Assembly (NCBI RefSeq): GCF_016806735.1
Contig: NZ_CP060530.1
Location: forward strand, 180,001-212,000
DNA: 32,000 nt
Source of the DNA: Candidatus Micrarchaeum sp.
GTDB lineage: Archaea; Micrarchaeota; Micrarchaeia; Micrarchaeales; Micrarchaeaceae
Direction: 5' to 3'
Position numbers and translations under genes: made by a program. The notes under the pieces were generated by a model. That model saw nothing but the letters and a program-made list of their open reading frames with translations, did not search any database and was not told the origin of the DNA. Of this stretch, positions 2,670-25,657 are shown in pieces (position 1 is the first letter of the stretch; every line of letters begins with the position of its first letter).

Positions 2670-3431
2670 ATGATGAAAACTTCCGATGACATAATAGACG
2701 GCTTTGACGGGTTGCTGACCAAGGAACAGGCAGACAGGCTGTATTTGGAATCAAGGTCACGCTCAGGGATAAACGGGGGATTCGTGACTGCAGGGTATAT
2801 AAGCGATCTAATGGGTCCCGGCGCAACTGGCATACTCAAGGGGCTTGAAAAAGAAAGACTAAACCTAGAAGATAAAATTTATCGTATTTTTAACCCCGTC
2901 AAAAAGAACTTCGGCAACTCCGATTCCGTATCACGCATTTTGGTCCTGGGCTCCGAGGGCAGCACGGCAAATGTGCTGCTGGGCAAAAAACTATCAGATG
3001 CAATAGATTCTGGGTTGTTCTGCAGGGGAGACACAGTAGTAATTACAAACCTGACGATGGACATAAGGGCGTCACTTCTCCGGCCGACGCAAAAAACCTC
3101 AATCAAAAAGATTGCCGTTGAAGATTCATGCATAAAAGATTTTTCCTTGCTAAGCCCCGGAATGAAGAATATAGATGTCGTAGGAGTTGCGATGGAAGCA
3201 GGCCCTGCCGTAACGCTGGTAAATTCTGCGTCAAGGAAATTTGTATCTACGTACATTATGCTAAGCGATGGCAAAACTTCCGTCCGTGTTGCATGCACAG
3301 GCTCTTCGGCAGAACTGGCTTCGAAATTGCCTTTGAATTCAAAGGTAAGAATAGAATTCTGCGATGTGCGCGGAAACAATGGCACAACGGAAGTGCATGC
3401 AGGCAATCTCTCAAGAATTGCGGTTCTTTAA
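2670..3431 (+). CDS. hypothetical protein, possibly two OB-fold (RPA/SSB-like) modules
   Basis: 253-aa ORF starting 9 nt after the preceding gene. The segments ILVLGSEGSTANVLLGKKLSDAIDSGLFCRGDTVVITN and VVGVAMEAGP...YIMLSDGKTSVRVACTGSSAELASKLPLNSKVRIEFCDVRGNNGTTEVHAG resemble the beta-rich pattern of archaeal RPA OB folds. The function call is weak. Confidence 0.4.
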   Translation: MMKTSDDIIDGFDGLLTKEQADRLYLESRSRSGINGGFVTAGYISDLMGPGATGILKGLEKERLNLEDKIYRIFNPVKKNFGNSDSVSRILVLGSEGSTANVLLGKKLSDAIDSGLFCRGDTVVITNLTMDIRASLLRPTQKTSIKKIAVEDSCIKDFSLLSPGMKNIDVVGVAMEAGPAVTLVNSASRKFVSTYIMLSDGKTSVRVACTGSSAELASKLPLNSKVRIEFCDVRGNNGTTEVHAGNLSRIAVL

Positions 3432-3441
3432 AAATGACGTG

Positions 3442-6195
3442 TTATCTCTGCCCGTATTTTGCATAAAATGACAGGTACTGGCTCATGACAACGTCAGGGG
3501 CGGATGGCTTCGTCAATTTAATTATGCTCTCCAGGTCTTCATTCGTGACTTTCGAATCCTCACCGCTCTTTATTGTGCGCTGCATTGCCCTGGTTTTTGC
3601 CTCCCTGCAAATGCTCGCTATGTCCGCCCCGGTATAATTCTTGGTCATGCTCGCGAGCAGCTTGAAATCCAGATTCGCCGCTTTTGGGACCTTTTCCAAA
3701 TATTCTTCGAATATCTTGGCCCGCGCTTCCTCGTCTGGAGGTTTTATGAATATGAGCTTGTCAAATCTTCCGGGCCTCAATATTGCAGGATCCATCACGT
3801 CAGGCCTGTTAGTTGCCCCTACTACTATCACGTTATTCATCTGCTTCAGCCCGTCCATGTCCTTAAGCATTTCTGTTGTTATCTGTGCGTTTATCTCGCT
3901 CGCATTTTGCCTGTTTATTATTATCCCGTCTATCTCGTCTATGAATATGATTGATGGCTTGTTCTCTATGGCCCTGTAAAAAATCGACTTCAGCTTGGCA
4001 TTCGCGTTTTCTATGCCTTCGTTCTGCAGGGTGGGCGCGTCTATCTCCAGCATGGTCACTCCCTTCAACTCATTGGCCACTGCGCGCATCAGCATCGTCT
4101 TTCCCGTTCCGGGCGGCCCGAAAAGTAGCATGCCATTTATCGTCTTTATATCATATTTTTCAAGAAGGTCAGGATGCATCAGCGGTATCTGTATTGCTTC
4201 TACTATTGCCTTCTTTGCAGCATCGAGCCCTATGACTTTGTCGAGCGTGATTTCGTCTTCCTTTTTGGACGTGGTATCGTTGCCCATGCGCCTTTCGAAA
4301 TCTACCTTGAACGTATTGTATTTCTCAATCTGTGCGAGCGTAGTCGAAGGCTTTGTAGATTTTATGACGCTTAGCATGTCGTCCATTGTTATCTCAAGTA
4401 TCCTGTGCTCGTTCGCTGCTTCCTGGGCCACCATTTGGGCTACGCTTTGGCATACTGCTTTTATGTCGGCACCAGTATACCTGGGCGTCTTTTCCGCTAG
4501 CAGATCAAGGTCCATGTTGCTGGAAACTGGCAATTTTTTAAGGTATATCTCAAATATTTTCTTCCTGCCGTTGAAGTCTGGGAGCTGCATGTATATCGCC
4601 CTGTCGATCCTTCCTGGCCTCAAAAGTGCAGGGTCGAGTTTATCCGGTGTGTTTGTGGCTCCAACCACTATAACATGCTCCAGCTTCTGGAATCCGTCAA
4701 GCTCCTGCAACAGCTGCGATAATATGTGCCTGTGAACTTCATCAGTCTCCAAGTCCCTGCTCATTGCTATTGAATCTATTTCGTCTATGAAAAGCACGCA
4801 CGGAGTGTTCTTGTTTGCTATTCCGAATATGTTGCTGAGCATCTTCTCCGATTCGCCAGTGTACGCGGATACTATGTTCGTTCCTTTGATATAAAAGAAG
4901 TTCGCATGTATCTCGTTGGCAAGAGCCCTCATCATAAGTGTCTTTCCAGTTCCTGGAGGACCAAAAAATATTATGCCTTTGAGCGGCTTTATGTTGTATG
5001 CCCTTGAAATGCCCTTTTGCTCCAGAGGGGCTATTATGGCTTCCTTGAGCTCTGTCTTGGTATTTTCATAGTTTCCTATGTCATCAAAGGTTTCGGTAAC
5101 GTTGCCCTGCTGCAAATCTTCGAACGCTTCCCCGAACTTCATTCGCGTATCATACTTCTTAACGTCAAGTGCCTTTACAACCTTCACATTGTAAAGCTCC
5201 AGTATCGCTAGGCCAACAGGTGCTATTGCAAAGCTTATGAAAGGGTAAATGTAGTTTATGTTTATCGGCTGCAGTATTCCAACTGCAAGGTATCCTATTG
5301 GGATTATCACCCCTGCTATTGCTGCTTTTCCTCCCTTTATCTTGGATCTGCTGTTTATTGCAATCCTTTCAATGGCAAACGCGGCAAGCAGGTATATCGG
5401 TATTACCAAAAGGTAATATATCTGTTTTGAAATGGCGCTCAGCATCATCGCAAACGTCACGTCTATGCTTTCTATGGCATTTTTGGAAACGAACTTGTTT
5501 GCCGCAATGCTTGCTCCTTTGGCGAAATTTATAATGTTAAGGGCGGGCAACCCTTCATAAGTATAGTTTAATTCGCTACCGAAATCTTTTGTACTGAATC
5601 CCTGATGTACCAAATGCCCATTCAACGGCACAAGCGCGCTGGATCCTATGCCCATCACTCCGGAAAATGCGGCAATGCCGAGCACGACAATTAGGAACAT
5701 CATGACGGATCTTTTGAATCCCACCGTAAGCACTGCAAATATCGCTACCGGTATGGCAATGACTACTCCTACGAATGAAAACGCTGAAGCAATCAGTATG
5801 TAAGCGAACAGTATGGTCCTGTAATGCATGTAACCGTATATGAGCGAGAAGCTCAATATGAATAGGAATATCCATGCCAAAGCCGGCGTCTGGTACACCA
5901 ATATCGGTACCATTATAAGCATCAGCAATATGAATCCAAGAAACGGGTGTATCTCAGTGGCGGCGAAGAGCCCTATGACTATGAGCAGAATTATAAGGTA
6001 AGGGTAAAAGGGAAACGCGTATGCAATCGATACGAAAGCAAGTGCCACTAGGACTGCATCAAGGAAGTTCTTGTTGGACCTTATGTTCATCAGCAGGTCC
6101 TTTATCCTGTAATACCACAGCGGCCCTCGTTTTGCCTGCTTGAGTATATTGCGGACTCTTTCGCTTTTTATCTCCTCGTTACCTATTTTTGGCAT
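3442..6195 (-). CDS. membrane-anchored tandem AAA+ ATPase (Cdc48/VAT-like D1-D2 cassette fused to a polytopic N-terminal membrane domain)
   Basis: 917 aa. Residues from about 40 to 335 are a run of hydrophobic helices, roughly 8-10 predicted TM segments. D1 has Walker A FFGPPGTGKTLMMRALANE, Walker B CVLFIDEIDS and second region of homology ATNTPDKLDPALLRPGRIDR. D2 has LFGPPGTGKTMLMRAVANE, SIIFIDEIDG and ATNRPDVMDPAILRPGRFDK. There is no protease domain. Confidence 0.85.
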   Translation of the reverse strand: MPKIGNEEIKSERVRNILKQAKRGPLWYYRIKDLLMNIRSNKNFLDAVLVALAFVSIAYAFPFYPYLIILLIVIGLFAATEIHPFLGFILLMLIMVPILVYQTPALAWIFLFILSFSLIYGYMHYRTILFAYILIASAFSFVGVVIAIPVAIFAVLTVGFKRSVMMFLIVVLGIAAFSGVMGIGSSALVPLNGHLVHQGFSTKDFGSELNYTYEGLPALNIINFAKGASIAANKFVSKNAIESIDVTFAMMLSAISKQIYYLLVIPIYLLAAFAIERIAINSRSKIKGGKAAIAGVIIPIGYLAVGILQPININYIYPFISFAIAPVGLAILELYNVKVVKALDVKKYDTRMKFGEAFEDLQQGNVTETFDDIGNYENTKTELKEAIIAPLEQKGISRAYNIKPLKGIIFFGPPGTGKTLMMRALANEIHANFFYIKGTNIVSAYTGESEKMLSNIFGIANKNTPCVLFIDEIDSIAMSRDLETDEVHRHILSQLLQELDGFQKLEHVIVVGATNTPDKLDPALLRPGRIDRAIYMQLPDFNGRKKIFEIYLKKLPVSSNMDLDLLAEKTPRYTGADIKAVCQSVAQMVAQEAANEHRILEITMDDMLSVIKSTKPSTTLAQIEKYNTFKVDFERRMGNDTTSKKEDEITLDKVIGLDAAKKAIVEAIQIPLMHPDLLEKYDIKTINGMLLFGPPGTGKTMLMRAVANELKGVTMLEIDAPTLQNEGIENANAKLKSIFYRAIENKPSIIFIDEIDGIIINRQNASEINAQITTEMLKDMDGLKQMNNVIVVGATNRPDVMDPAILRPGRFDKLIFIKPPDEEARAKIFEEYLEKVPKAANLDFKLLASMTKNYTGADIASICREAKTRAMQRTIKSGEDSKVTNEDLESIIKLTKPSAPDVVMSQYLSFYAKYGQR

Positions 6196-6306
6196 CCGAA
6201 ATACCTGCTGCGGCTCAGTGCAGCATATAATGCTATGCTGACACGTTACCTGCTACACTGCATTATCTCTTATATTTATTAAAATTTAAACCCTTTTGCA
6301 GGACAG

Positions 6307-9390: not shown

Positions 9391-10437
9391 ATGGAAATAA
9401 AGAAGGAAGCAGCTACTGCAGGCAAAGATATGCACGAAGGACTTGCGTCTTTATCTAGGAAGGAATATTCCCGATCTGCAAAGGCGGATTTTCTCTCATG
9501 GATGGAATCTGAAGGGTACGTAATCAGGGATGGCAACGGAAAGCTAAAGTTCAATACAAATTGGCGCAATAAAGAGGACAGGATAAAATCCGTTCGCAAG
9601 CTTGTCGAAGTGATGAATATATCTCCGCTGGACCTTAAAAATGGGGACTTTTTCGAAATGGGGCTTATAGAAATGCTAAAAATATACTCTTTAAAACGCG
9701 GCAGTTTTCCAGCAGTTTTCAACGCCCTAAAGGAAGCATATCCAGAGCTTGAGATAAATCTATGGGATATAAGAAGCCTGAACGGAACCATATCTAAAAA
9801 CAGGGAAACTGCTGACGAAGCGATAAGATGGCTCGTCAAGAAGAAATCCGGAGTTGTTACAGAGGACGATTTCAAGAACAACGGAGTAAGCTTCGTACTT
9901 TCATTCTATAACAACGTGTTCGATGCAATCATATTCTCGAAGCCTGATTTCCTGGAAAGCAACTCCATAAAGGTCCTCGCAGGAAAATATTTGGACAAAG
10001 CATTTGCAAACAATGTCAACAAGAGACGTGCTGCCATATCTACGATAATAAAATTATCGGGATCTCCCAAATCGGTAAACTACCAAAGTTTCGAACGGTA
10101 CGGCATGGAAAGCCTATTGTCATGCTATTTGCAGAACCCCATATTTTTGAACAACTTCATAAAGCCGGAGGACGAAAGCAAGCTTCTTGCATGGCTTGCA
10201 ATATCTGACGTTATAAAAGATTTTAAAGCATGGGAGATGGAAGATCCTCCGAAATCGCTTTTGCTAAATAGGAAAACCAGGATAGAATCGACTGTTTGGC
10301 TTTCTTCCGTATTGCACAAGAGTGTATACAGGCTCTCTTATGCGGATTGGGAAAGGTCTGGGATAGAATGGATCATAAACGAATTTTATGGCGGAAACCA
10401 TTACGGTGCGATACACGACGTAATGGATTCAGTTTAA
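9391..10437 (+). CDS. hypothetical protein built of four ~55-aa internal repeats
   Basis: 348 aa. Four modules share N[KR]xxxhxxhxxLh...(D/Y)(F/W)xxxGhxxhhxxY/F...A/hh. Examples: NKEDRIKSVRKLVEV..DFFEMGLIEMLKIY..AVFNALKEA; NRETADEAIRWLVKK..DFKNNGVSFVLSFYNNVFDAIIF; NKRRAAISTIIKLSG..YQSFERYGMESLLSCY; NRKTRIESTVWLSSV..YADWERSGIEWIINEFYGGNHYGAIHDV. GC is lower than in neighbouring genes. Confidence 0.6.
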   Translation: MEIKKEAATAGKDMHEGLASLSRKEYSRSAKADFLSWMESEGYVIRDGNGKLKFNTNWRNKEDRIKSVRKLVEVMNISPLDLKNGDFFEMGLIEMLKIYSLKRGSFPAVFNALKEAYPELEINLWDIRSLNGTISKNRETADEAIRWLVKKKSGVVTEDDFKNNGVSFVLSFYNNVFDAIIFSKPDFLESNSIKVLAGKYLDKAFANNVNKRRAAISTIIKLSGSPKSVNYQSFERYGMESLLSCYLQNPIFLNNFIKPEDESKLLAWLAISDVIKDFKAWEMEDPPKSLLLNRKTRIESTVWLSSVLHKSVYRLSYADWERSGIEWIINEFYGGNHYGAIHDVMDSV

Positions 10438-10467: not shown

Positions 10468-11490
10468 TTACGCTATTGACGCAATGCCTTTGAACGAAGC
10501 CAGCTGTTCTCCCGCCTCGTCCATAGAGTTGAAAATATCTATTTTTATGTGCATCAATTCGGCCTTTGCGAGTATCTTTTGCACATCCTGATTTCCAAGC
10601 ATTGAGTCGTTGACTATCAGGCTGCCAACTGCATAGTCATCAATGGCAGTCGCAACGTTTTCTATTCCGTATTTTGATGTCCCAGAGGAAAGCCCCTTAA
10701 GAAATTCTTCCATGACTGCAAATTCGCTCCTTATGTGCTCGCTTCTCAAAAGGCTTTCGACTTCCGAGCTGCGTATTATCTCATACACTCCAGAGCGCTC
10801 GGTATTGCTTGCCTGCTGGTATATTATGCGCTTGTCTATCTTCTCCTGTTTGGATTCCATATAGGTGCGAACATCATCCTTGGTGAATCCTGGCCCTGCA
10901 ACTATTACTGTGTCTACATCCATGCTTTTTATCGTGCTTGTTATGGCTTCGTAGAACTTCCTTTGCTGTTCCTGGAAGTCTTTCTGCGTCATCCTTTTGC
11001 TCAGGTTGCTGTAAATCTCGTTCCTGAACTCCACGCCGTAGCCAAGAAGGTAAGCAGGAAGCGCCTTCTCGTCGTCGACCACTATTATACCAAGCCTGGG
11101 CTTTTTCGTGTCCCCAACCGCATTTTTTACTACATTGACCAGGTAATCCGGCCATGCGGCTTTTATTATGTCTAGCGTATCCGACGGGGCTATGTTGAGC
11201 GTATGGTAGCTGTTAAGCCGTATATACTGCTCTGGTTTCCCTTCGACTATTTTGCCCATTATCCTTAACCTCAGCGCATTCTTGTCAAGCTCTGTCTTCT
11301 CAACGCGCAGGGTTATGATAACCTCCTTCAGCTCTCCCACATCCGTCTCGTTTGCCTTGAACTTCCTGAGGCTCTTCGATTTCACAAGATCGTTCGGAAG
11401 CACTATGCGTTGCACCGTCCACAAGTCTTCCAGAGTGTCAAGCTTGAGCCTCATGACGCCTTCTCCTTGGTAAAACTTTACTATGTGCAT
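10468..11490 (-). CDS. pelA: mRNA surveillance / ribosome rescue factor Pelota (aDom34)
   Basis: 340 aa. The N-terminal GEGVMRLKLDTLEDLWTVQRIV, the central IIVVDDEKA...VIVAGPGFTKDD and the eRF1-like C-terminal domain (KYGIENVATAIDDYAVGSLIVND) match Pelota. Confidence 0.9.
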   Translation of the reverse strand: MHIVKFYQGEGVMRLKLDTLEDLWTVQRIVLPNDLVKSKSLRKFKANETDVGELKEVIITLRVEKTELDKNALRLRIMGKIVEGKPEQYIRLNSYHTLNIAPSDTLDIIKAAWPDYLVNVVKNAVGDTKKPRLGIIVVDDEKALPAYLLGYGVEFRNEIYSNLSKRMTQKDFQEQQRKFYEAITSTIKSMDVDTVIVAGPGFTKDDVRTYMESKQEKIDKRIIYQQASNTERSGVYEIIRSSEVESLLRSEHIRSEFAVMEEFLKGLSSGTSKYGIENVATAIDDYAVGSLIVNDSMLGNQDVQKILAKAELMHIKIDIFNSMDEAGEQLASFKGIASIA

Positions 11491-11551
11491 AAAACAAAAC
11501 CTTACACTACATTACGCTCATTTATTATTTGCGCTTATAATAAATATTGTT

Positions 11552-12484
11552 TTGGAGGGTGGTATTATAAGCAGAAAAGCAGTTGGCAATGAGTACCTGC
11601 TTATTGCGGCCATAATGATCTTGTCCATCGCGCTTGTGGCTGAATCCTTTGCCATATACCTCGGAACACATCCTGGCAATCTCAGCAGCACATCCCTGAC
11701 AAGCACAATAGCGCAAGCGCCTACCTCAAAGCTTAATCTAATACTGACTGCTCCGGAATATTCGGTTGTAAATTTTGAGGTTACTGTATCTGGTAGCGGT
11801 TTTAACGAATCGCAGTATGCAAAGCTCGGCCCAAAACTCTACATGCTGAATTACAGCGAGGTAAAAGGCATAAGCGCAGCCTCCGGCCCAATAACAATAA
11901 GCTCAAACACGGAACTTAACAAAACTGTGGTGGTGCCGGACAATGAAACACGCATGCTTTTCACAGGGCTTGAGCCCTACTCAAACTATTCGGTTACCAT
12001 AAAGGGCTCGGAAAGCCCGTACTGCTTCCCAGGCCTTGCATGCCCGATGTTCATACTTGCAATTTCGAGATCCTACGAACTGCGTACTGGCCCGGCGAAT
12101 TCTATAAGCAACTATTCCATAAATCTTTCACCTGCCCCTTACCAGAATTCAACCATCTCGCAATATGCTTGCAGCACAGGCCTTCCAATGGCAATAAACC
12201 AAAGTGCCTATGTCCGTTGCAATGACGGTTCACGCCTGCTGAACTTCGTACTGTCGCAGGTTAACTCCAATGGCACAATAACCGGCCTGGTATACCCATA
12301 CTATTACATTATGGTAAACACAAGCATAAAGCCATTGAAGGAAGTATTCCGTGACGGGCAGGAGGTAAGCTTCTCATGTTCAGGCTACATCGCATATCTG
12401 CAAAACTCCAGCTATGCCGGCCAATACGCGATATTCAAGGTCATAAGGATCCATCCTATACCATGCCCTGCCGAAGTTGGCTAA
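11552..12484 (+). CDS. membrane-anchored extracellular protein rich in N-glycosylation sequons
   Basis: It has a single N-terminal hydrophobic helix (LLIAAIMILSIALVAESFAIYL) followed by a Ser/Thr/Asn-rich ectodomain. The ectodomain has at least 12 NxS/T sequons (NLS, NES, NYS, NKT, NET, NYS, NLS, NST, NQS, NGT, NTS, NSS). The track start at 11483 overlaps the divergent pelota start, so I prefer the in-frame TTG at 11552, which has an AT-rich box about 25 nt upstream. The start remains uncertain. Confidence 0.55.
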   Translation: MEGGIISRKAVGNEYLLIAAIMILSIALVAESFAIYLGTHPGNLSSTSLTSTIAQAPTSKLNLILTAPEYSVVNFEVTVSGSGFNESQYAKLGPKLYMLNYSEVKGISAASGPITISSNTELNKTVVVPDNETRMLFTGLEPYSNYSVTIKGSESPYCFPGLACPMFILAISRSYELRTGPANSISNYSINLSPAPYQNSTISQYACSTGLPMAINQSAYVRCNDGSRLLNFVLSQVNSNGTITGLVYPYYYIMVNTSIKPLKEVFRDGQEVSFSCSGYIAYLQNSSYAGQYAIFKVIRIHPIPCPAEVG

Positions 12485-20115: not shown

Positions 20116-20634
20116 CTAACATTCACACGAAGGTTTCTTTATCCTCTTCAACGAAACTCGGATCGAATAATAAAGCAGTAATGCTGCCATTACAATGAAA
20201 ACAGGGCTGAAATTCGAAAGTGCTCCCTGTATCGCGCCAGACGCAAGCGCAATGCCTCCGGATCCAAAAACTGCAACAAGGATAGAAGGTATAATCGGAG
20301 TGCAGCACATGGTTGAGGGCACGAGGCTTACTACGAAAGCGTATATTCCGCTCCTGTTGCCCTTTACATTGTTCCTAACTGTTTTTTGAGAATAGAGCCC
20401 AATAGCTATTGATAGTGCTGCCAGTATTGAAAGTGTAAACGAAGAAGCCAATATGTAATAAAAATAGTACTTAATCCCAAAAAGCGCAAGACCGAAACTG
20501 AAATACGAAAAAATTACATAGTAAAATATGAACATTGCAGCGAAGAATGTCAAAAACCTTACTTTAAGCGCCTTAAGGATTGCAGTAGTACCTTCTAAAG
20601 TTTCAAAGCTGCTGCTTTGTGCATAGCCGTTCAT
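20116..20634 (-). CDS. 4-TM membrane protein with intramembrane vicinal Cys pair and C-terminal CxC (candidate Hg(II)/thiol transporter)
   Basis: 172 aa with four hydrophobic helices. FVVSLVPSTMCCTPIIPSILVAVFG places CC inside helix 3. The C-terminus reads ...RIKKPSCEC. It is the first gene of the co-oriented merA transcription unit. I recognise no family by eye. Confidence 0.6.
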   Translation of the reverse strand: MNGYAQSSSFETLEGTTAILKALKVRFLTFFAAMFIFYYVIFSYFSFGLALFGIKYYFYYILASSFTLSILAALSIAIGLYSQKTVRNNVKGNRSGIYAFVVSLVPSTMCCTPIIPSILVAVFGSGGIALASGAIQGALSNFSPVFIVMAALLLYYSIRVSLKRIKKPSCEC

Positions 20635-21076: not shown

Positions 21077-21209
21077 AATCGCGGCAGAAAACTATGGACA
21101 ACTGCATAATTCTTCGCGTATTTGTCCAATAAATGCACTTTAAATAAATTTGTGCAAATGGCTATATATTTGGTCGGTCCTATATTATTTTTACATAAAA
21201 AGCGATTAT

Positions 21210-22463
21210 ATGGGATCCATTACAATATCCAAACCAAATAAACAAGAACGCGACAATTTGACGGATGTTCAAAAAAGGAACGCAGGCATAACCGCAAAAT
21301 ACGGGACACCTGAACAGCAGTCGGAGCTTTTAAACTCCGAAAGTATTAAAGACCTGCTTAAAATTAGCTATGAAGGCGAAGAAATCTACAAAATACTGGC
21401 CAAATCTAAATCAATTGATGTGAAATTCAAGCTTTTGGACTTTGTAACTTCAAAATCACCGGATTTGCTTGAAATGGTTGCACCGATACTTATAGAGGAG
21501 GCGAGACTTGCATATCGCAACGCTGAAATGCAAACAAGCAAAGATGTAATCGGAAAAGTTTGGGAATGCATAAAGATGGTTGACAACCCGGCAGATCCAA
21601 AAATACTTAATTCCGGCAAGAAAGAAAAGTTGGCTTATTCTTTATTTACATCCGAAGAAGGCTTTAGCCTTGTTTCCGATTTTCTTAGCTGGTTAAATGA
21701 CGCATCAGCGCTAAAGGCTTATAAAGAATATAGAGAGATCACCAAAGATAAATATTACAAAAACTCTCTTGACGCCATACCTACCAGAAAGAAAAATGTG
21801 GTAAAATCACGTCGTTACTTAGCGAACTATATTGCAACTTATGGTGGAGACAAGTTAAGGCTAGATCTTTTAAACACTATCGACCGTTTGAAGGCCTACG
21901 AACTGTTATATTTGGAAGACGAAACAAAAAGTAAGACAAGGTACAATTTCAACCCCATAGCATCAAAAAGCAATCACAACGAAAGCCTTTATTCAATTAT
22001 AGCTGCAAGCAGTGACGAAGAAGCAATCTCGAAATTTTTGGACGTGGTAGGCAAAATGGAAAACGGTGGCGAATTGCTCCTAGCAAAACCTCAGAACGAC
22101 TACTATTACAGCAAGTACCATTTTGACGGATTGGTTTCTCTCATAGCAGCAAAGATGGATTTCGAGTATAAATTTAATGCTGAAATTAACGGTGAGATTA
22201 GCAATAAAATATTGGCTCTTGCTGAAAAATACCCTCTAATACTCGGGTCGCGTTTCAGGTATGGTTCCGAAGAATATTACACAACCGTTGCCGAAATTAT
22301 AGCTGAGAAAGGCGGAAAGGAGATACAAGAGAAACTGCTAAAATTCATCGAAATCCCTGGTCTGGCAGAGCCTATAACAAAGGCAATAAACAAGTATAGC
22401 ACCGAAGAACTAAAGAAGGAAGTTCAAAAGTTCCTTCTTGGGCCCTTTAAACTTCGCGTCTAA
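21210..22463 (+). CDS. hypothetical protein (all-alpha, Lys/Glu-rich orphan in low-GC DNA)
   Basis: About 417 aa from the ATG at 21210 (MGSITISKPNK...). The track start at 21150 adds an implausible hydrophobic leader. I recognise no motif. A hand-counted 60-nt line (21421-21480) is 35% GC, versus 55% for 14881-14940 in alaS. Confidence 0.6.
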   Translation: MGSITISKPNKQERDNLTDVQKRNAGITAKYGTPEQQSELLNSESIKDLLKISYEGEEIYKILAKSKSIDVKFKLLDFVTSKSPDLLEMVAPILIEEARLAYRNAEMQTSKDVIGKVWECIKMVDNPADPKILNSGKKEKLAYSLFTSEEGFSLVSDFLSWLNDASALKAYKEYREITKDKYYKNSLDAIPTRKKNVVKSRRYLANYIATYGGDKLRLDLLNTIDRLKAYELLYLEDETKSKTRYNFNPIASKSNHNESLYSIIAASSDEEAISKFLDVVGKMENGGELLLAKPQNDYYYSKYHFDGLVSLIAAKMDFEYKFNAEINGEISNKILALAEKYPLILGSRFRYGSEEYYTTVAEIIAEKGGKEIQEKLLKFIEIPGLAEPITKAINKYSTEELKKEVQKFLLGPFKLRV

Positions 22464-24078: not shown

Positions 24079-24597
24079 CCGGGTCAATGAATAATACTCG
24101 CAATTCTAAGGCTGTAATCTTTTATTAGCGTTATGAATGCGGACTGGTTTGCAAGGTAATCCTTGCTGCCCCTTTTGTCCGTGTGTATGTTGAGCCTTTC
24201 GAGTACTACCTCGTCAACGCTGTCCATGCCCTTCAGAAAGATGCCTTTAGCATCCTTGCCTCCGTTGCAGTCGAACAGCGCCGCGAAGTAATTTCCGGAA
24301 TATGCATTGGCGTACTTGAATATGTTTACTCTTCTTTCAAGCGCCTTTTCAAACCTTTTCACCATCGTGGAGTTGTAGAAGAAAGTTTTCTTGACCTTGC
24401 CCTCGCTGTCGATGATTATCTTGTTAGGCTCAATGCCGAACTCGTCCATTGCGAGCTTGGCAAACCTTGCAATCATATCATCGTCGCTTGAGGACAGTTC
24501 AATCCGCTTTCCCCTGTTGCACCTGTATATTCCAAGCATGTAGCTTGTATCAGGCGTTAGTCTTAGCTTTTGTGTCATTGTATCACTCATAGACTTA
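24079..24597 (-). mobile_element. 16S rRNA intron carrying a homing-endonuclease-type ORF
   Basis: The exon sequence GUUAAGUCCGG is interrupted at 24598/24597 and resumes as AAACGAGCGAGACCC at 24078. Joining the two restores the universal GUUAAGUCnGGnAACGAGCGAGACCC block at the correct length. CCGG is repeated at both junctions, so the exact splice point is ambiguous within 4 nt. Confidence 0.8.
24084..24590 (-). CDS. LAGLIDADG-type (double-motif) homing endonuclease-like protein encoded in the 16S intron
   Basis: 168 aa from AUG at 24590, 7 nt into the intron, to UGA at 24084-24086, 5 nt before the intron end. Motif 1 is SYMLGIYRCNRG (24513-24539). Motif 2 is YFAALFDCNGG (24261-24287), about 84 aa later. 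The 60 N-terminal codons of track ORF 24084..24770 are translated rRNA exon and are excluded. Confidence 0.75.
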   Translation of the reverse strand: MSDTMTQKLRLTPDTSYMLGIYRCNRGKRIELSSSDDDMIARFAKLAMDEFGIEPNKIIIDSEGKVKKTFFYNSTMVKRFEKALERRVNIFKYANAYSGNYFAALFDCNGGKDAKGIFLKGMDSVDEVVLERLNIHTDKRGSKDYLANQSAFITLIKDYSLRIASIIH

Positions 24598-25657
24598 CCG
24601 GACTTAACCGGACAGTTCACACCACGAGCTGACGGTCGCCATGCACTACCTCTCGGCTTGTCAGGTAAGATCTTCAGTCTGACCTTCACACTGCCGTCGC
24701 TTCTGGTAATATTTCCGACGTTGGATTCAATTAAACCGCAGCATCCACCCCTTGTGTGCTCCCCCGCCAATTGCTTTAAGTTTCAACCTTGCGGCCGTAC
24801 TCCCCAGGCGGCAGACTTAACACTTACGCTACGGTACTGCAAGCATTCGTGATACTTGCAACACCAGAGTCTGCATAATTTACTGCTAGGGCTACTCGGG
24901 TATCTGATCCGATTCGTTCTCCTAGCCTTCGCTCCTCACCGTCGGATGCGTTCTAGTCAGGCGCCTTCGCCACCGTTAGTCCTTATAGGATTACAGGATT
25001 TAACCCCTCCCCCATAAGTACTCCTGACCTCACCCGCTCCCTAGCCGATGGGTATCTCGCGCACGCATTGACGTTGAGCGCCAATATTTCACGCGAGACG
25101 GCATCAGCCGGCTACGAGCGCTTTAAGCCCAATAATCGTGGACACCACTTGTGCTGCCGGTATTACCGTGGCGGCTGCCACCGGTCTTGCCCAGCACTTA
25201 TTCGCCAAGCTTGCTATACTTGGCAAAAGGTTCACAAAGTGAACCACTCAGATTCCCCCCATCACGCTTACGCGCATTGTGGAGTTTGCGCGCCTGCTGC
25301 ACACCGTAGTGCTAGGGCCCTTGTCTCAGTGCCCTTCTCGGGGCTTATGCTCCCACATCCCCTACGGGTTATAGGTATGGTGGGCCGTTACCCCGCCATC
25401 TGCCTGATCCGCCGCAGTCTCATCGTAAAGCGGAAGCGCTGCAATTCGCGCTCCTTTAAGTCAGGGCTCCTTCCAGAATCCCTGGCCTATGGCGCATTAG
25501 CCACAGTTTCCCATGGGTATTCGCCTCTTTACGGTAGATTGACTACGTGTTACTGAGCCGTACGCTGCCCAGCGAAGCCGCTGAGCGAACTTGCATGGCT
25601 GTCGAAATCTGATAGCAGTGCCCTCCAGCAGCATCGACTGGAATCGATGTCTGGAAC

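What the first reader, a model, noticed from the sequence alone, without database searches (positions are those of the whole stretch)
3442..6195. Cdc48/VAT-like double AAA+ ATPase whose N-domain is replaced by a ~330-aa polytopic membrane domain
D1 and D2 are both complete, each with Walker A, Walker B and the second region of homology with its Arg fingers. The region where Cdc48/VAT carries its soluble substrate-recognition N-domain is instead about 8-10 hydrophobic helices. There is no protease domain, unlike FtsH or archaeal membrane LonB. The C-terminus (...AKYGQR) does not end in a canonical HbYX tail. A membrane-embedded type II AAA+ unfoldase could be a dedicated membrane-protein extractase or dislocase. 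That would be functionally analogous to Msp1, or to Cdc48 in ERAD, and is poorly described in Archaea.
Basis: partly seen in the sequence, partly recalled or inferred. Interest (0 to 1): 0.65.

Follow-up and report, generated by a model that had tools for sequence, protein, structure and literature searches.

The report
Membrane-embedded Cdc48-like double AAA ATPase
A real, conserved gene of the tiny symbiotic Micrarchaeota fuses a Cdc48/VAT-type two-ring protein-unfolding motor to a roughly ten-helix membrane domain of no known fold, which most likely pulls proteins out of or through the cell membrane and has not been described before.

Summary
Window 3442-6195 (-) is one 917-aa ORF with a hydrophobic N-terminal ~340 aa, an invariant linker (RMKFGEAFEDL) and two complete classical AAA modules. 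Their nearest solved relatives are p97/Cdc48/VAT.

The fusion is not an assembly artefact. The same ~900-930-aa architecture occurs in more than 110 species-level genomes, nearly all Micrarchaeota (DPANN). The membrane domain was never found in a protein shown to lack an AAA module.

The membrane domain has no Pfam match. Its confident AlphaFold model (pLDDT 88) has no structural neighbour in the PDB or BFVD.

Charge and glycosylation-sequon distributions support about 10 TM helices, N-in/C-in, with a ~74-aa external loop.

Only the membrane-proximal D1 ring keeps the aromatic pore loop. In D2 it is lost across the family.

There is no protease domain, no HbYX tail and no conserved operon partner.

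The most deeply conserved membrane-domain motifs (PFYP, YQxP) lie on the outer face. A distant Thermoplasmatota sister family shares them.

Best reading: a hexameric membrane-integral unfoldase or dislocase whose N-domain takes an active part. Its function is inferred, not shown.

Verdict: a new variant of a known kind, of moderately high interest.

The parts
3442..6195 (-). Whole gene: 917-aa membrane-domain + D1 + D2 AAA ATPase (stop codon at 3442-3444)
   Evidence: Single ORF. Full-length homologs at 48-95% identity and 98-100% coverage.
6067..6195 (-). Residues 1-43: basic cytoplasmic N-terminal tail with conserved P25/Y29 motif and an amphipathic helix at 26-40
   Evidence: 8.6 K+R per sequence. 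P25 and Y29 are invariant in A1. Helices 12-21 and 26-40 in the model.
5185..6066 (-). Residues 44-337: polytopic membrane domain (about 10 TM) of unknown fold, with motifs FYP 63-65, HPFLG 83-87, YQxP 101-104, GYxHxR 121-126, GxKR 159-162, N185, RSKYKG 283-288 and E333
   Evidence: Hydropathy. AF2 pLDDT 88.1, pTM 0.86. No Pfam hit. No Foldseek hit in PDB or BFVD. Conservation.
5425..5652 (-). Residues 182-257: variable loop of ~74 aa with short helices, predicted to be extracellular
   Evidence: Sequon density is 1.60 per 100 aa here against 0.13 in D1 and 0.34 in D2. K+R density is low.
5095..5184 (-). Residues 338-367: membrane-to-D1 linker containing the near-invariant D-x-R-M-K-F-G-E-A-F-E-D-L (349-361); F354 is invariant
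   Evidence: Low pLDDT (56-58) in the monomer model.
4276..5094 (-). Residues 368-640: D1 AAA module plus lid (Walker A 412-419, Walker B 467-472, sensor-1 N515, Arg fingers R526/R529)
4846..4869 (-). Residues 443-450: D1 pore loop 1, S-A-Y-T-G-E-S-E; aromatic (Y or F) in 103 of 119 family members
   Evidence: One search gives the column composition. The residue sits in the S-x-Ar-x-G-x-S-E pore-loop motif, which I equate from memory with VAT K-Y-Y-G (Tyr264). That alignment was not printed here, because one search aligns the query's D2.
3445..4275 (-). Residues 641-917: D2 AAA module plus lid (Walker A 693-700, Walker B 749-754, N796, R807/R810)
   Evidence: Scores 195.3 bits against VAT D2 and 166.7 bits against VAT D1.
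4003..4026 (-). Residues 724-731: degenerate D2 pore loop 1; the position aligned with the Trp of VAT K-W-V-G is G727 (family: G85, D17, N6)
3445..3459 (-). Residues 913-917: conserved C-terminal tail KYGQR; not an HbYX motif
6271..6290 (-). A/T-rich TATA-like box (tttaaattttaataaatata) upstream of the gene, between the CarS stop (6307) and the ATG; suggests the gene has its own promoter
   Evidence: Read directly from the sequence. Not tested further.
2670..3431 (+). Convergent 253-aa neighbour (weak RPA/SSB-like OB-fold signal). It is the only neighbour conserved across the family. Its functional link to the ATPase is unproven.
   Evidence: Present tail-to-tail in 46 of 77-80 loci with a median gap of 6 bp. 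NCBIfam E 8e-4 to replication factor A.

Best explanation
The gene encodes a membrane-integral, Cdc48/VAT-type type II AAA unfoldase that is specific to Micrarchaeota.

Shown here:
- It is one conserved polypeptide made of a basic cytoplasmic tail, a membrane domain of about 10 TM helices with no detectable relative of known fold, an invariant linker, and two ATPase-competent AAA rings.
- It has no protease domain, no HbYX tail and no operon partner.

Inferred:
- It assembles as a hexamer like its relatives, which would put about 60 TM helices in a ring directly over the mouth of the D1 pore.
- The D1 ring, which alone keeps the aromatic pore-loop residue, grips a polypeptide segment presented at or in the membrane and threads it from D1 to D2 into the cytoplasm. 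D2 would supply ATPase power and ring stability rather than grip.
- The membrane domain is an active module for substrate recognition or membrane distortion, not a passive anchor. It is large and is always coupled to AAA modules, and its oldest conserved motifs (PFYP, YQxP) sit on the outer face.

The most likely role is extraction (dislocation) of membrane or surface proteins for quality control or turnover. That would fill the niche that FtsH occupies in bacteria. The released chain would be handed to a separate protease or refolded.
For: - ORF and domains.
- The nearest solved relatives are exclusively p97/Cdc48/VAT, followed by AFG2 and NVL.
- All Walker A/B, sensor-1 and Arg-finger residues are invariant in both rings across 62 sequences reaching down to 33% identity.
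- The D1 pore loop keeps Y or F in 103 of 119 members. In D2 it is replaced by G, D or N.
- The architecture is conserved in more than 120 protein clusters and 114 species genomes.
- A profile search with the N-domain over 1.84 billion representatives gives only 75 clusters. Every long one carries AAA modules.
- hhalign links the N-domain to a Thermoplasmatota AAA-fused sister family (probability 96.9%, E 1.3e-10) that shares PFYP and YQxP.
- The positive-inside rule and sequon enrichment give an N-in/C-in topology with an external loop.
- The AF2 model of the N-domain is confident.
- Inteins are inserted in D1 of three homologs. Inteins characteristically sit in conserved sites of important proteins.
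- Substrate entry through the D1 face is established knowledge for Cdc48 and VAT.
Against: - No substrate, activity or oligomeric state is shown here.
- The D1 pore loop is Ar-P/T-G rather than the canonical Ar-hydrophobic-G.
- The monomer model gives no fixed orientation of the membrane domain relative to D1 (pTM 0.59; linker pLDDT about 57).
- AlphaFold draws residues 104-138 as one continuous helix, which conflicts with the TM4/TM5 hairpin that the 10-TM topology requires.
- Conservation on the outer face is not what a purely lateral, cytoplasm-side extractase would need.
- No protease partner was identified. I could not check whether the same genomes carry a canonical Cdc48, PAN, LonB or a 20S proteasome.
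Confidence: 0.5

Rival explanations
1. Translocation motor with its own channel. The six membrane domains form or gate a protein-conducting path. The ATPase pulls polypeptides that start outside the cell (surface, secreted or host-derived proteins) all the way across the membrane into the cytoplasm. This would be a single-polypeptide retrotranslocon or importer.
For: - The most deeply conserved N-domain residues are on the predicted outer face: Y64-P65, Y101-Q102-x-P104, N185.
- PFYP and YQxP are the motifs retained in the distant Thermoplasmatota sister family, which adds a sequon-rich ectodomain of ~330 aa.
- The domain is far larger than an anchor needs to be.
- It is always fused to AAA modules.
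- The direction of Cdc48-type threading (in at D1, out at D2) would point inward.
Against: - No pore is demonstrated.
- No hexamer model could be made.
- The outer-face motifs are rich in Pro, Tyr and Gly and could simply be structural helix caps.
- There is no precedent for an AAA-driven protein importer in archaea.
- No partner genes are present.
Confidence: 0.22
2. Passive tether. The membrane domain only localises a general Cdc48-like segregase to the membrane. There it disassembles cytoplasmic or peripheral complexes in the manner of NSF or Vps4. The membrane domain plays no part in the reaction.
For: - The linker is predicted to be flexible in the monomer.
- The AAA part alone resembles general-purpose VAT/p97.
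- Some plant Spaf-like Cdc48 relatives carry a simple TM anchor (PMC5070193).
Against: - Ten helices per subunit carry specific conserved polar and aromatic motifs on both faces.
- The linker is near-invariant.
- The domain co-occurs with AAA modules across two phyla.
- One or two helices would suffice for an anchor.
Confidence: 0.17
3. Coupled membrane enzyme. The N-domain is itself a catalyst (an intramembrane protease, a glycosyl- or lipid-transferase, or a transporter) that the AAA motor feeds or regulates. This would be an FtsH-like machine with an intramembrane active site.
For: - Conserved H124, E333 and D/E276 lie within or near the membrane in the Micrarchaeota set.
- No separate protease domain is present.
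Against: - Across the 62-sequence alignment no His, Asp or Ser in the N-domain is invariant. H83 is 33 of 62 and H124 is 44 of 62. The best-kept residues are Pro, Tyr, Gln, Trp, Lys, Arg and Asn.
- The model shows no fold similarity to rhomboid, S2P, CPBP, GT-C or any transporter.
- GYxHxR and GxKR are not kept in the sister family.
Confidence: 0.06
4. Artefact. Two separate genes (a membrane protein and a Cdc48) have been joined by a sequencing or assembly error.
For: None, beyond one frameshifted copy elsewhere (L001/L077).
Against: - The same uninterrupted ORF appears in independent assemblies from many studies.
- The linker across the junction is invariant.
- No protein shown to be a stand-alone N-domain exists among 1.84 billion representatives. 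The shorter hits were not individually checked, and the one examined is a frameshifted fusion.
Confidence: 0.01

Closest known systems
VAT / Cdc48 / p97 (type II classical AAA unfoldases; TIGR01243)
   Same: Tandem D1-D2 with a complete second region of homology. These are the best PDB sequence matches (E about 1e-116). D2 aligns best with VAT D2. D1 keeps an aromatic pore-loop residue, as VAT D1 does. Both rings appear catalytically competent.
   Different: No double-psi-barrel/beta-clam N-domain; a membrane domain of about 10 TM takes its place. It scores 537 bits against the family cutoff of 802.65. The D2 pore-loop aromatic is lost, whereas VAT and p97 D2 have W-V/F-G. There is no HbYX tail or long C-terminal tail. 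D1 is about equally similar to p97 D1 and D2.
FtsH (bacterial and organellar membrane AAA protease)
   Same: A classical-clade AAA ring held at the cytoplasmic face of the membrane by N-terminal TM segments. The presumed job is pulling membrane proteins out of the bilayer. Archaea generally lack FtsH (my knowledge).
   Different: FtsH has 2 TM helices plus a small periplasmic domain, a single AAA ring and a fused M41 zinc protease. Here there are about 10 TM helices, two rings and no protease. TIGR01241 scores 390 bits against a cutoff of 600.
Msp1 / ATAD1 (membrane-protein extractase)
   Same: A membrane-anchored AAA without a protease that extracts membrane proteins through its central pore.
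   Different: Msp1 has one TM anchor and one AAA ring of the meiotic clade. Its anchor is passive. No homology exists beyond the AAA core.
MBA, the 'membrane-bound AAA' proteins of Sulfolobus (Serek-Heuberger et al. 2009, cited in PMC3493965)
   Same: Archaeal AAA proteins attached to the membrane, recognised as a cluster separate from CDC48, PAN, AMA and Vps4.
   Different: The paper is not held and I had no MBA sequence, so no direct comparison was possible. From memory they are specific to Sulfolobales and have few TM helices flanking an external N-domain. The N-domain profile search returned only the Micrarchaeota-type family and its Thermoplasmatota relatives among the named hits.
Cdc48 + Hrd1/Derlin (ERAD) and the Ycf2-FtsHi chloroplast import motor
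   Same: These are conceptual analogues: an AAA motor on one face of a membrane pulls polypeptides through or out of it with help from a polytopic membrane partner.
   Different: In those systems motor and membrane component are separate proteins recruited by adaptors or ubiquitin. Here they are one chain. No sequence or fold similarity to Hrd1, Derlin or TIC components was found.
Archaeal membrane LonB
   Same: An archaeal membrane-bound AAA+ machine for protein quality control.
   Different: LonB is an HCLR-clade AAA+ protein with its TM helices inserted inside the ATPase domain and a Lon protease domain. None of these features is present here.

Membership tests
CDC48/VAT/p97 family (TIGR01243) | Two tandem classical AAA modules (D1, D2), each with Walker A/B, sensor 1 and the SRH Arg fingers | tested here: met
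   The top PDB hits are p97, Cdc48 and VAT.
CDC48/VAT/p97 family (TIGR01243) | N-terminal double-psi beta-barrel plus beta-clam substrate/adaptor domain (CDC48_N, CDC48_2) | tested here: not met
   No Pfam hit on residues 1-345 at E<=10. The region is a helical membrane domain.
CDC48/VAT/p97 family (TIGR01243) | Reaches the curated whole-protein score of the family model | tested here: not met
   537.2 bits against a cutoff of 802.65.
CDC48/VAT/p97 family (TIGR01243) | Aromatic-hydrophobic-Gly pore loop 1 in D2 (the main translocating ring) | tested here: not met
   The position aligned with the VAT D2 Trp is G727. The family has G85, D17 and N6 there.
Proteasome-docking archaeal AAA (PAN, Cdc48, AMA) | C-terminal HbYX motif (hydrophobic-Tyr-any at the last three residues) | tested here: not met
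   The tail is (K/R)-Y-G-x-R in nearly all of 120 homologs, with Tyr at -4. The motif definition is taken from PMC3493965.
FtsH (TIGR01241) | Single AAA module followed by an M41 zinc-metalloprotease domain | tested here: not met
   No Peptidase_M41 hit. 390 bits against a cutoff of 600, covering only the AAA part of the profile.
Archaeal LonB | AAA+ module with inserted TM helices plus a C-terminal Lon protease domain | tested here: not met
   No Lon family appears among the listed Pfam or NCBIfam hits (best 25 of 55 and 60 shown), and D2 with its lid occupies the sequence up to the C-terminus, leaving no room for a Lon_C domain.
Msp1/ATAD1 | One N-terminal TM anchor plus one AAA ring | tested here: not met
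   About 10 TM helices and two AAA modules.
Sulfolobus MBA (membrane-bound AAA) | Sequence membership in the MBA cluster of Forouzan et al. 2012 / Serek-Heuberger et al. 2009 | not testable with these tools
   The paper is not held and no MBA sequence was available. This is only indirect evidence: the named hits of the N-domain profile search are Micrarchaeota or Thermoplasmatota.
IetAS anti-phage system (PADLOC IetA) | A single-domain IetA ATPase next to an IetS protease within a defence island | tested here: not met
   The IetA hits cover only the generic AAA core. The neighbourhood is made of housekeeping genes with no protease partner.

The most novel reading that the evidence does not exclude
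The hexamer of the unknown-fold membrane domain is itself a protein-conducting or membrane-thinning dislocation channel, which would make this a one-polypeptide 'retrotranslocon plus motor'. It would be an archaeal, ubiquitin-independent analogue of the ERAD Hrd1/Derlin-Cdc48 machine. In these host-dependent DPANN symbionts it could even be an ATP-driven importer of surface or host-derived polypeptides.
Probability: 0.22. Interest if true: 0.85.

Novelty: new variant of a known kind. Interest (0 to 1): 0.6.

Why it matters
Membrane-protein extraction by AAA motors is understood through FtsH, Msp1 and Cdc48-ERAD. In those systems the motor is either anchored by one or two passive helices or recruited to a separate membrane partner.

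Here a Cdc48/VAT-type double ring is covalently fused to a large, conserved membrane domain of novel fold. That domain has an essential-looking outer-face site, and only the membrane-proximal ring keeps a gripping pore loop.

If the membrane domain takes part in dislocation, the protein is a compact single-gene model for how a polypeptide is handed from a bilayer to an unfoldase pore. It would make a natural cryo-EM target.

It also adds a lineage-defining component to the proteostasis of Micrarchaeota, and a new membrane-protein family with no Pfam entry and no structural neighbour.

Tried and rejected
- **Profile libraries on the N-domain.** Pfam at E<=10 gave nothing. PADLOC also gave nothing on the N-domain, and only generic IetA/TRIP13 AAA matches on the whole protein.
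- **Word-indexed homology search with the N-domain alone.** It returned just 3 hits, probably because hydrophobic words saturated the candidate list. The one apparent stand-alone N-domain (P0122) proved to be a frameshifted fusion.
- **Foldseek on the N-domain model.** Against the PDB and BFVD there was no hit at E<=0.001 and TM scores were about 0.2 or lower.
- **The search for related loci.** The first attempt, with the N-domain alignment, failed because no stretch was conserved enough. An alignment centred on the linker solved this.
- **Synteny clustering of all neighbours in 77 loci.** No protease, adaptor or operon partner emerged. The only conserved neighbour is a convergent OB-fold-like ORF, plus patchy housekeeping genes.
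- **CarS as a partner.** I considered it because it lies directly upstream on the same strand. I rejected it because that adjacency holds only in 7 close relatives.
- **Literature.** Searches for this architecture in Micrarchaeota, Mancarchaeum or DPANN, and for the MBA paper, found nothing usable.
- **Enzyme hypothesis for the N-domain.** I judged it unlikely because no His, Asp or Ser is invariant.
- **Not possible with these tools.** I could not obtain model coordinates, so the conflict between the TM4/TM5 hairpin and the long helix is unresolved. I could not build a hexamer model. I could not scan whole Micrarchaeota genomes for canonical Cdc48, PAN, 20S or LonB.
Full report
**1. Checking the observation**

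The window carries a single uninterrupted ORF at 3442..6195 on the minus strand: 917 aa with an ATG start.

Pfam detects two PF00004 AAA modules (combined E 9.9e-82; best stretches 408-537 and about 689-820) and two AAA_lid_3 domains. It detects nothing upstream of residue ~345. Scanned alone, the first 345 residues match no Pfam family even at E<=10.

Walker A (GPPGTGKT) lies at 412 and 693. Walker B (hhhhDE) lies at 467 and 749.

Kyte-Doolittle analysis gives strongly hydrophobic stretches at 43-189 and 257-340, separated by a more polar segment.

No protease domain is found. The FtsH model matches only through its AAA part and stays below its cutoff (390 against 600 bits). The protein ends in ...AKYGQR.

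With E-values of this size, chance is not an issue.

**2. Is the fusion real?**

Yes.

- A database search with the whole protein returns more than 120 clusters of 904-983 aa that align over 97-100% of the query at 47-95% identity. The few shorter entries in that list, such as P0007 (669 aa, marked partial) and P0120 (850 aa), are incomplete.
- A scan of one genome per GTDB species finds 114 relatives. The 80 loci retrieved are almost all MAGs labelled Micrarchaeota, Micrarchaeia, Micrarchaeaceae or Mancarchaeum. A batch is labelled Marsarchaeota, and three strays are labelled Methanothrix, Acidoferrum and Bryobacterales.
- One of the strays (contig_16067, L001/L077) has archaeal PolD genes next to it, so it is a mis-binned contig.
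- tblastn shows the gene as one continuous + strand hit of about 2.7 kb in 77 loci.
- The segment that spans the junction, D349-x-R-M-K-F-G-E-A-F-E-D-L361, is the most conserved part of the protein outside the ATPase motifs. F354 is invariant in 62 sequences that reach down to 33% identity.
- The only apparent 'stand-alone' N-domain (P0122, 389 aa) runs into that linker and is followed by four short AAA fragments on the same strand. It is a frameshifted copy of the fusion.

**3. The ATPase part**

Searched as a whole or as separate halves, the AAA region has p97/VCP, yeast Cdc48 and Thermoplasma VAT as its closest solved relatives (E 1e-107 to 1e-119). AFG2/SPATA5, NVL and Rix7 follow. All of these belong to the type II Cdc48 group.

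D2 (641-917) scores higher against VAT D2 (195.3 bits) than against VAT D1 (166.7 bits). D1 (346-640) is about equally similar to p97 D1 (194.6 bits) and p97 D2 (203.1 bits). The two halves of the query are 38.7% identical to each other.

The NCBIfam CDC48 model is the best family hit but stays below its cutoff (537 against 802.65 bits). The Pfam scan, which finds no CDC48_N or CDC48_2 domain on the N-terminal part, suggests the missing N-domain as the reason.

In a 62-sequence alignment the following residues are invariant:
- D1: Walker A Lys/Thr K418 and T419; Walker B D471 and E472; sensor-1 N515; SRH arginines R526 and R529.
- D2: Walker A K699, with T700 nearly invariant; Walker B D753 and E754; sensor-1 N796; SRH arginines R807 and R810.

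Both rings therefore look catalytically competent.

The pore loops differ between the rings. D1 has S443-A-[Y/F]-[P/T]-G-E-[T/S]-E. The aromatic residue is kept in 103 of 119 members. It sits in the conserved S-x-Ar-x-G-x-S-E motif, which I equate from memory with VAT D1 K-Y-Y-G; I did not print that alignment. In D2, the position aligned with the Trp of VAT D2 K-W-V-G is Gly727, and across the family it is G85, D17 and N6. Only the membrane-proximal ring retains a canonical gripping residue.

The C-terminus is a conserved (K/R)-Y-G-(Q/E)-R that follows directly on the last lid helix. Tyr is at -4, so the HbYX rule used for proteasome docking (PMC3493965) is not met.

**4. The membrane domain**

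An AlphaFold2 model of residues 1-348, built on 30 diverse family members, is confident (mean pLDDT 88.1, pTM 0.86). It is all-helical, with helices at 44-60, 66-82, 84-102, 104-137, 143-158, 160-181, 259-281, 287-308 and 317-334. Short helices lie in the 182-257 segment. The full-length model reproduces this.

Foldseek finds no neighbour for it in the PDB (best E 1.5, TM <=0.19) or in BFVD (best E 2.8).

Topology was inferred from the family alignment.
- Lys+Arg per sequence is 8.6 in the N-tail, 0.66 in L2, 1.35 in L4, 2.03 in L6 and 3.12 in L8.
- It is 0.03, 0, 0 and 0.27 in L1, L3, L5 and L9.
- N-x-S/T sequons reach 1.60 and 1.46 per 100 aa in loops 182-257 and 309-316, against 0.13 in D1 and 0.34 in D2.

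This fits ten transmembrane passes, with both termini cytoplasmic and the ~74-aa loop outside the cell.

One conflict remains. AlphaFold draws 104-138 as one continuous helix, whereas the ten-pass model needs a turn at G121-Y-M-H-Y-R126. I could not inspect coordinates, so this stays open. In both the ten-pass model and the nine-pass alternative, everything from TM6 onward, including the external loop and the cytoplasmic AAA rings, has the same orientation. The nine-pass model would put the very basic N-tail outside, which the charge data argue against.

**5. Conservation in the membrane domain**

Within Micrarchaeota the domain has clear motifs:
- FYP at 63-65
- HPFLG at 83-87
- YQxP at 101-104
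- GYxHxR at 121-126
- S140..G143
- GxKR at 159-162
- S178..G182..(Q)N185
- RSKYKG at 283-288
- E333

Across the wider 62-sequence set, the residues kept at >=90% are Y64, P65, P97, Y101, Q102, P104, W108, G159, K161, R162, N185 and P299. No His, Asp or Ser is invariant; H83 is 33 of 62 and H124 is 44 of 62. This argues against a hydrolytic active site.

Most of the best-kept residues map to the predicted outer face (L1, L3 and the start of L7). GxKR and RSKYKG are on the inner face.

**6. Distribution of the domain**

An HMM of the N-domain searched against 1.84 billion representative proteins finds only 75 clusters. Most are the same ~900-aa fusion or shorter proteins that are probably fragments of it.

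The unusually long members all carry AAA modules:
- Three have inteins (Intein_splicing with or without LAGLIDADG) inserted in D1 just after the P-loop.
- Three have an extra N-terminal ~400 aa. These belong to a family of ~1290 aa labelled Thermoplasmatota. It has a signal-anchor, a sequon-rich ectodomain of ~330 aa, a polytopic region, one canonical AAA module and a degenerate second one.

Profile-profile comparison confirms that the polytopic regions are homologous (hhalign probability 96.9%, E 1.3e-10 over 232 columns, TM1-TM8). The shared landmarks are exactly PFYP and YQ(S/T)P.

So the membrane domain is an old module that was not found in any protein shown to lack an AAA motor, and its oldest conserved features face outward.

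**7. Genomic context**

The window is archaeal housekeeping DNA: tRNA-Lys, isochorismatase, an epimerase, CDP-archaeol synthase, Pth2, a class IV aminotransferase, pelota, a VTT/DedA protein, Exo5, AlaRS, an M20 peptidase, a disulfide oxidoreductase, a redoxin and an exosome Rrp4/Csl4-like protein.

CarS lies 111 bp upstream on the same strand, but that adjacency holds only in 7 close relatives. An A/T-rich TATA-like box (6271-6290) and a 7-bp hairpin (6221-6240) lie between CarS and the ATG, which suggests the gene has its own promoter.

Unbiased clustering of all flanking ORFs in 77 loci finds a single widely conserved neighbour. It is the 253-aa ORF at 2670-3431, convergent and tail-to-tail (median gap 6 bp) in 46 loci. 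It has no Pfam or PDB match and only weak RPA/SSB-type OB-fold signals.

There is no protease, adaptor or secretion gene nearby. The defence-system hits (IetA, TRIP13) are generic AAA matches.

**8. Mechanism**

*Shown:* the architecture, the competence of both ATPase sites, the asymmetry of the pore loops, the topology (with one open point), and the absence of a protease domain, an HbYX tail and operon partners.

*Established for relatives (my knowledge):* Cdc48, VAT and p97 are hexamers that thread substrates in through the D1 face and out through D2.

*Inferred:*
- The protein is a hexamer with about 60 TM helices over the D1 mouth.
- D1 grips a chain presented at the membrane and pulls it into the cytoplasm.
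- D2 contributes ATP-driven force or stability without an aromatic grip.
- The invariant linker and the basic N-tail (with conserved P25/Y29) sit in the gap between bilayer and D1, where they couple nucleotide state to TM10 or guide the substrate.

Three features of the membrane domain point to an active part in the reaction: its size, its constant pairing with AAA modules, and its outer-face conservation. I therefore favour a dislocase in which that domain recognises substrates or destabilises the bilayer (confidence about 0.5).

The rivals are a full retrotranslocation or import channel (about 0.22), a passive tether for a general segregase (about 0.17), a coupled membrane enzyme (about 0.06) and an artefact (about 0.01).

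**9. Comparison with known systems and novelty**

The protein works like a member of the Cdc48/VAT group but fails several of that family's defining features: the N-domain, the model cutoff, the D2 pore loop and HbYX. It resembles FtsH and Msp1 only by analogy.

Membrane-bound archaeal AAA proteins (MBA of Sulfolobus) are recorded in the literature. I could not read that paper or obtain sequences, so a relationship is untested. The named hits of the N-domain profile search are Micrarchaeota or Thermoplasmatota only.

No paper in the searchable corpus describes this architecture. Databases call it just 'AAA family ATPase' or 'CDC48 family ATPase'.

I rate it a new variant of a known kind: a known motor in a known general role (membrane-anchored unfoldase) with a new, conserved membrane module of unknown fold and an unusual division of labour between the rings. 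Interest is 0.6.

Noticed in passing
window 2670-3431 (+): A 253-aa ORF with no Pfam or PDB match and only weak RPA/SSB OB-fold signals (NCBIfam E 8e-4). It sits tail-to-tail 10 bp from the AAA gene. That convergent pairing is kept in 46 of ~77 loci, down to 24-36% identity, and no other neighbour is conserved like this. It could be a functional partner or just frozen synteny.
   Followed up: partly
homologs P0141, P0161, P0186 (no window coordinates): Some family members carry one or two inteins (Intein_splicing with or without a LAGLIDADG homing endonuclease) inserted in D1 just after the Walker A P-loop. This inflates them to 1080-1912 aa.
   Followed up: partly
P0192 and relatives P0213-P0221, P0194, P0180 (Thermoplasmatota): A distant sister family of ~1290 aa: signal-anchor, a sequon-rich ectodomain of ~330 aa, a polytopic region homologous to TM1-TM8 of this N-domain (hhalign 96.9%, sharing the PFYP and YQxP motifs), one canonical AAA module and a degenerate second one.
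   Followed up: partly
L001 / L077 (contig_16067, labelled Bryobacterales); L003 (Methanothrix sp.); L069 (Acidoferrum sp.): Contigs carrying this archaeal gene are filed under unrelated taxa. L001 has archaeal PolD DP1/DP2 genes beside it, and its copy of the gene is broken into a 389-aa piece plus four AAA fragments. These are probably mis-binned contigs, and the breaks may be indel errors from long-read assembly.
   Followed up: partly
window 6221-6240 (-) and 6271-6290 (-): Between the CarS stop and the AAA start lie an A/T-rich TATA-like box and, ~25 nt upstream of the ATG, a perfect 7-bp hairpin (CAGCATA-gcatta-TATGCTG). The hairpin could be a 5'-UTR element or the CarS terminator.
   Followed up: no
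residues 104-138 of the protein (window 5782-5886, -): AlphaFold2 models a single 35-residue helix through the conserved G-Y-M-H-Y-R motif. The positive-inside pattern instead requires a cytoplasmic turn there between TM4 and TM5.
   Followed up: partly
window 9391-10437 (+), 11483-12484 (+), 20116-20634 (-), 21150-22463 (+), 24084-24770 (-): Five sizeable ORFs have no significant Pfam match. The one at 24084-24770 has a faint LAGLIDADG signal (E 0.026), and the one at 11483-12484 a faint fn3 signal. The ORFs at 9391-10437 and 11483-12484 are conserved in the closest relatives' loci.
   Followed up: no
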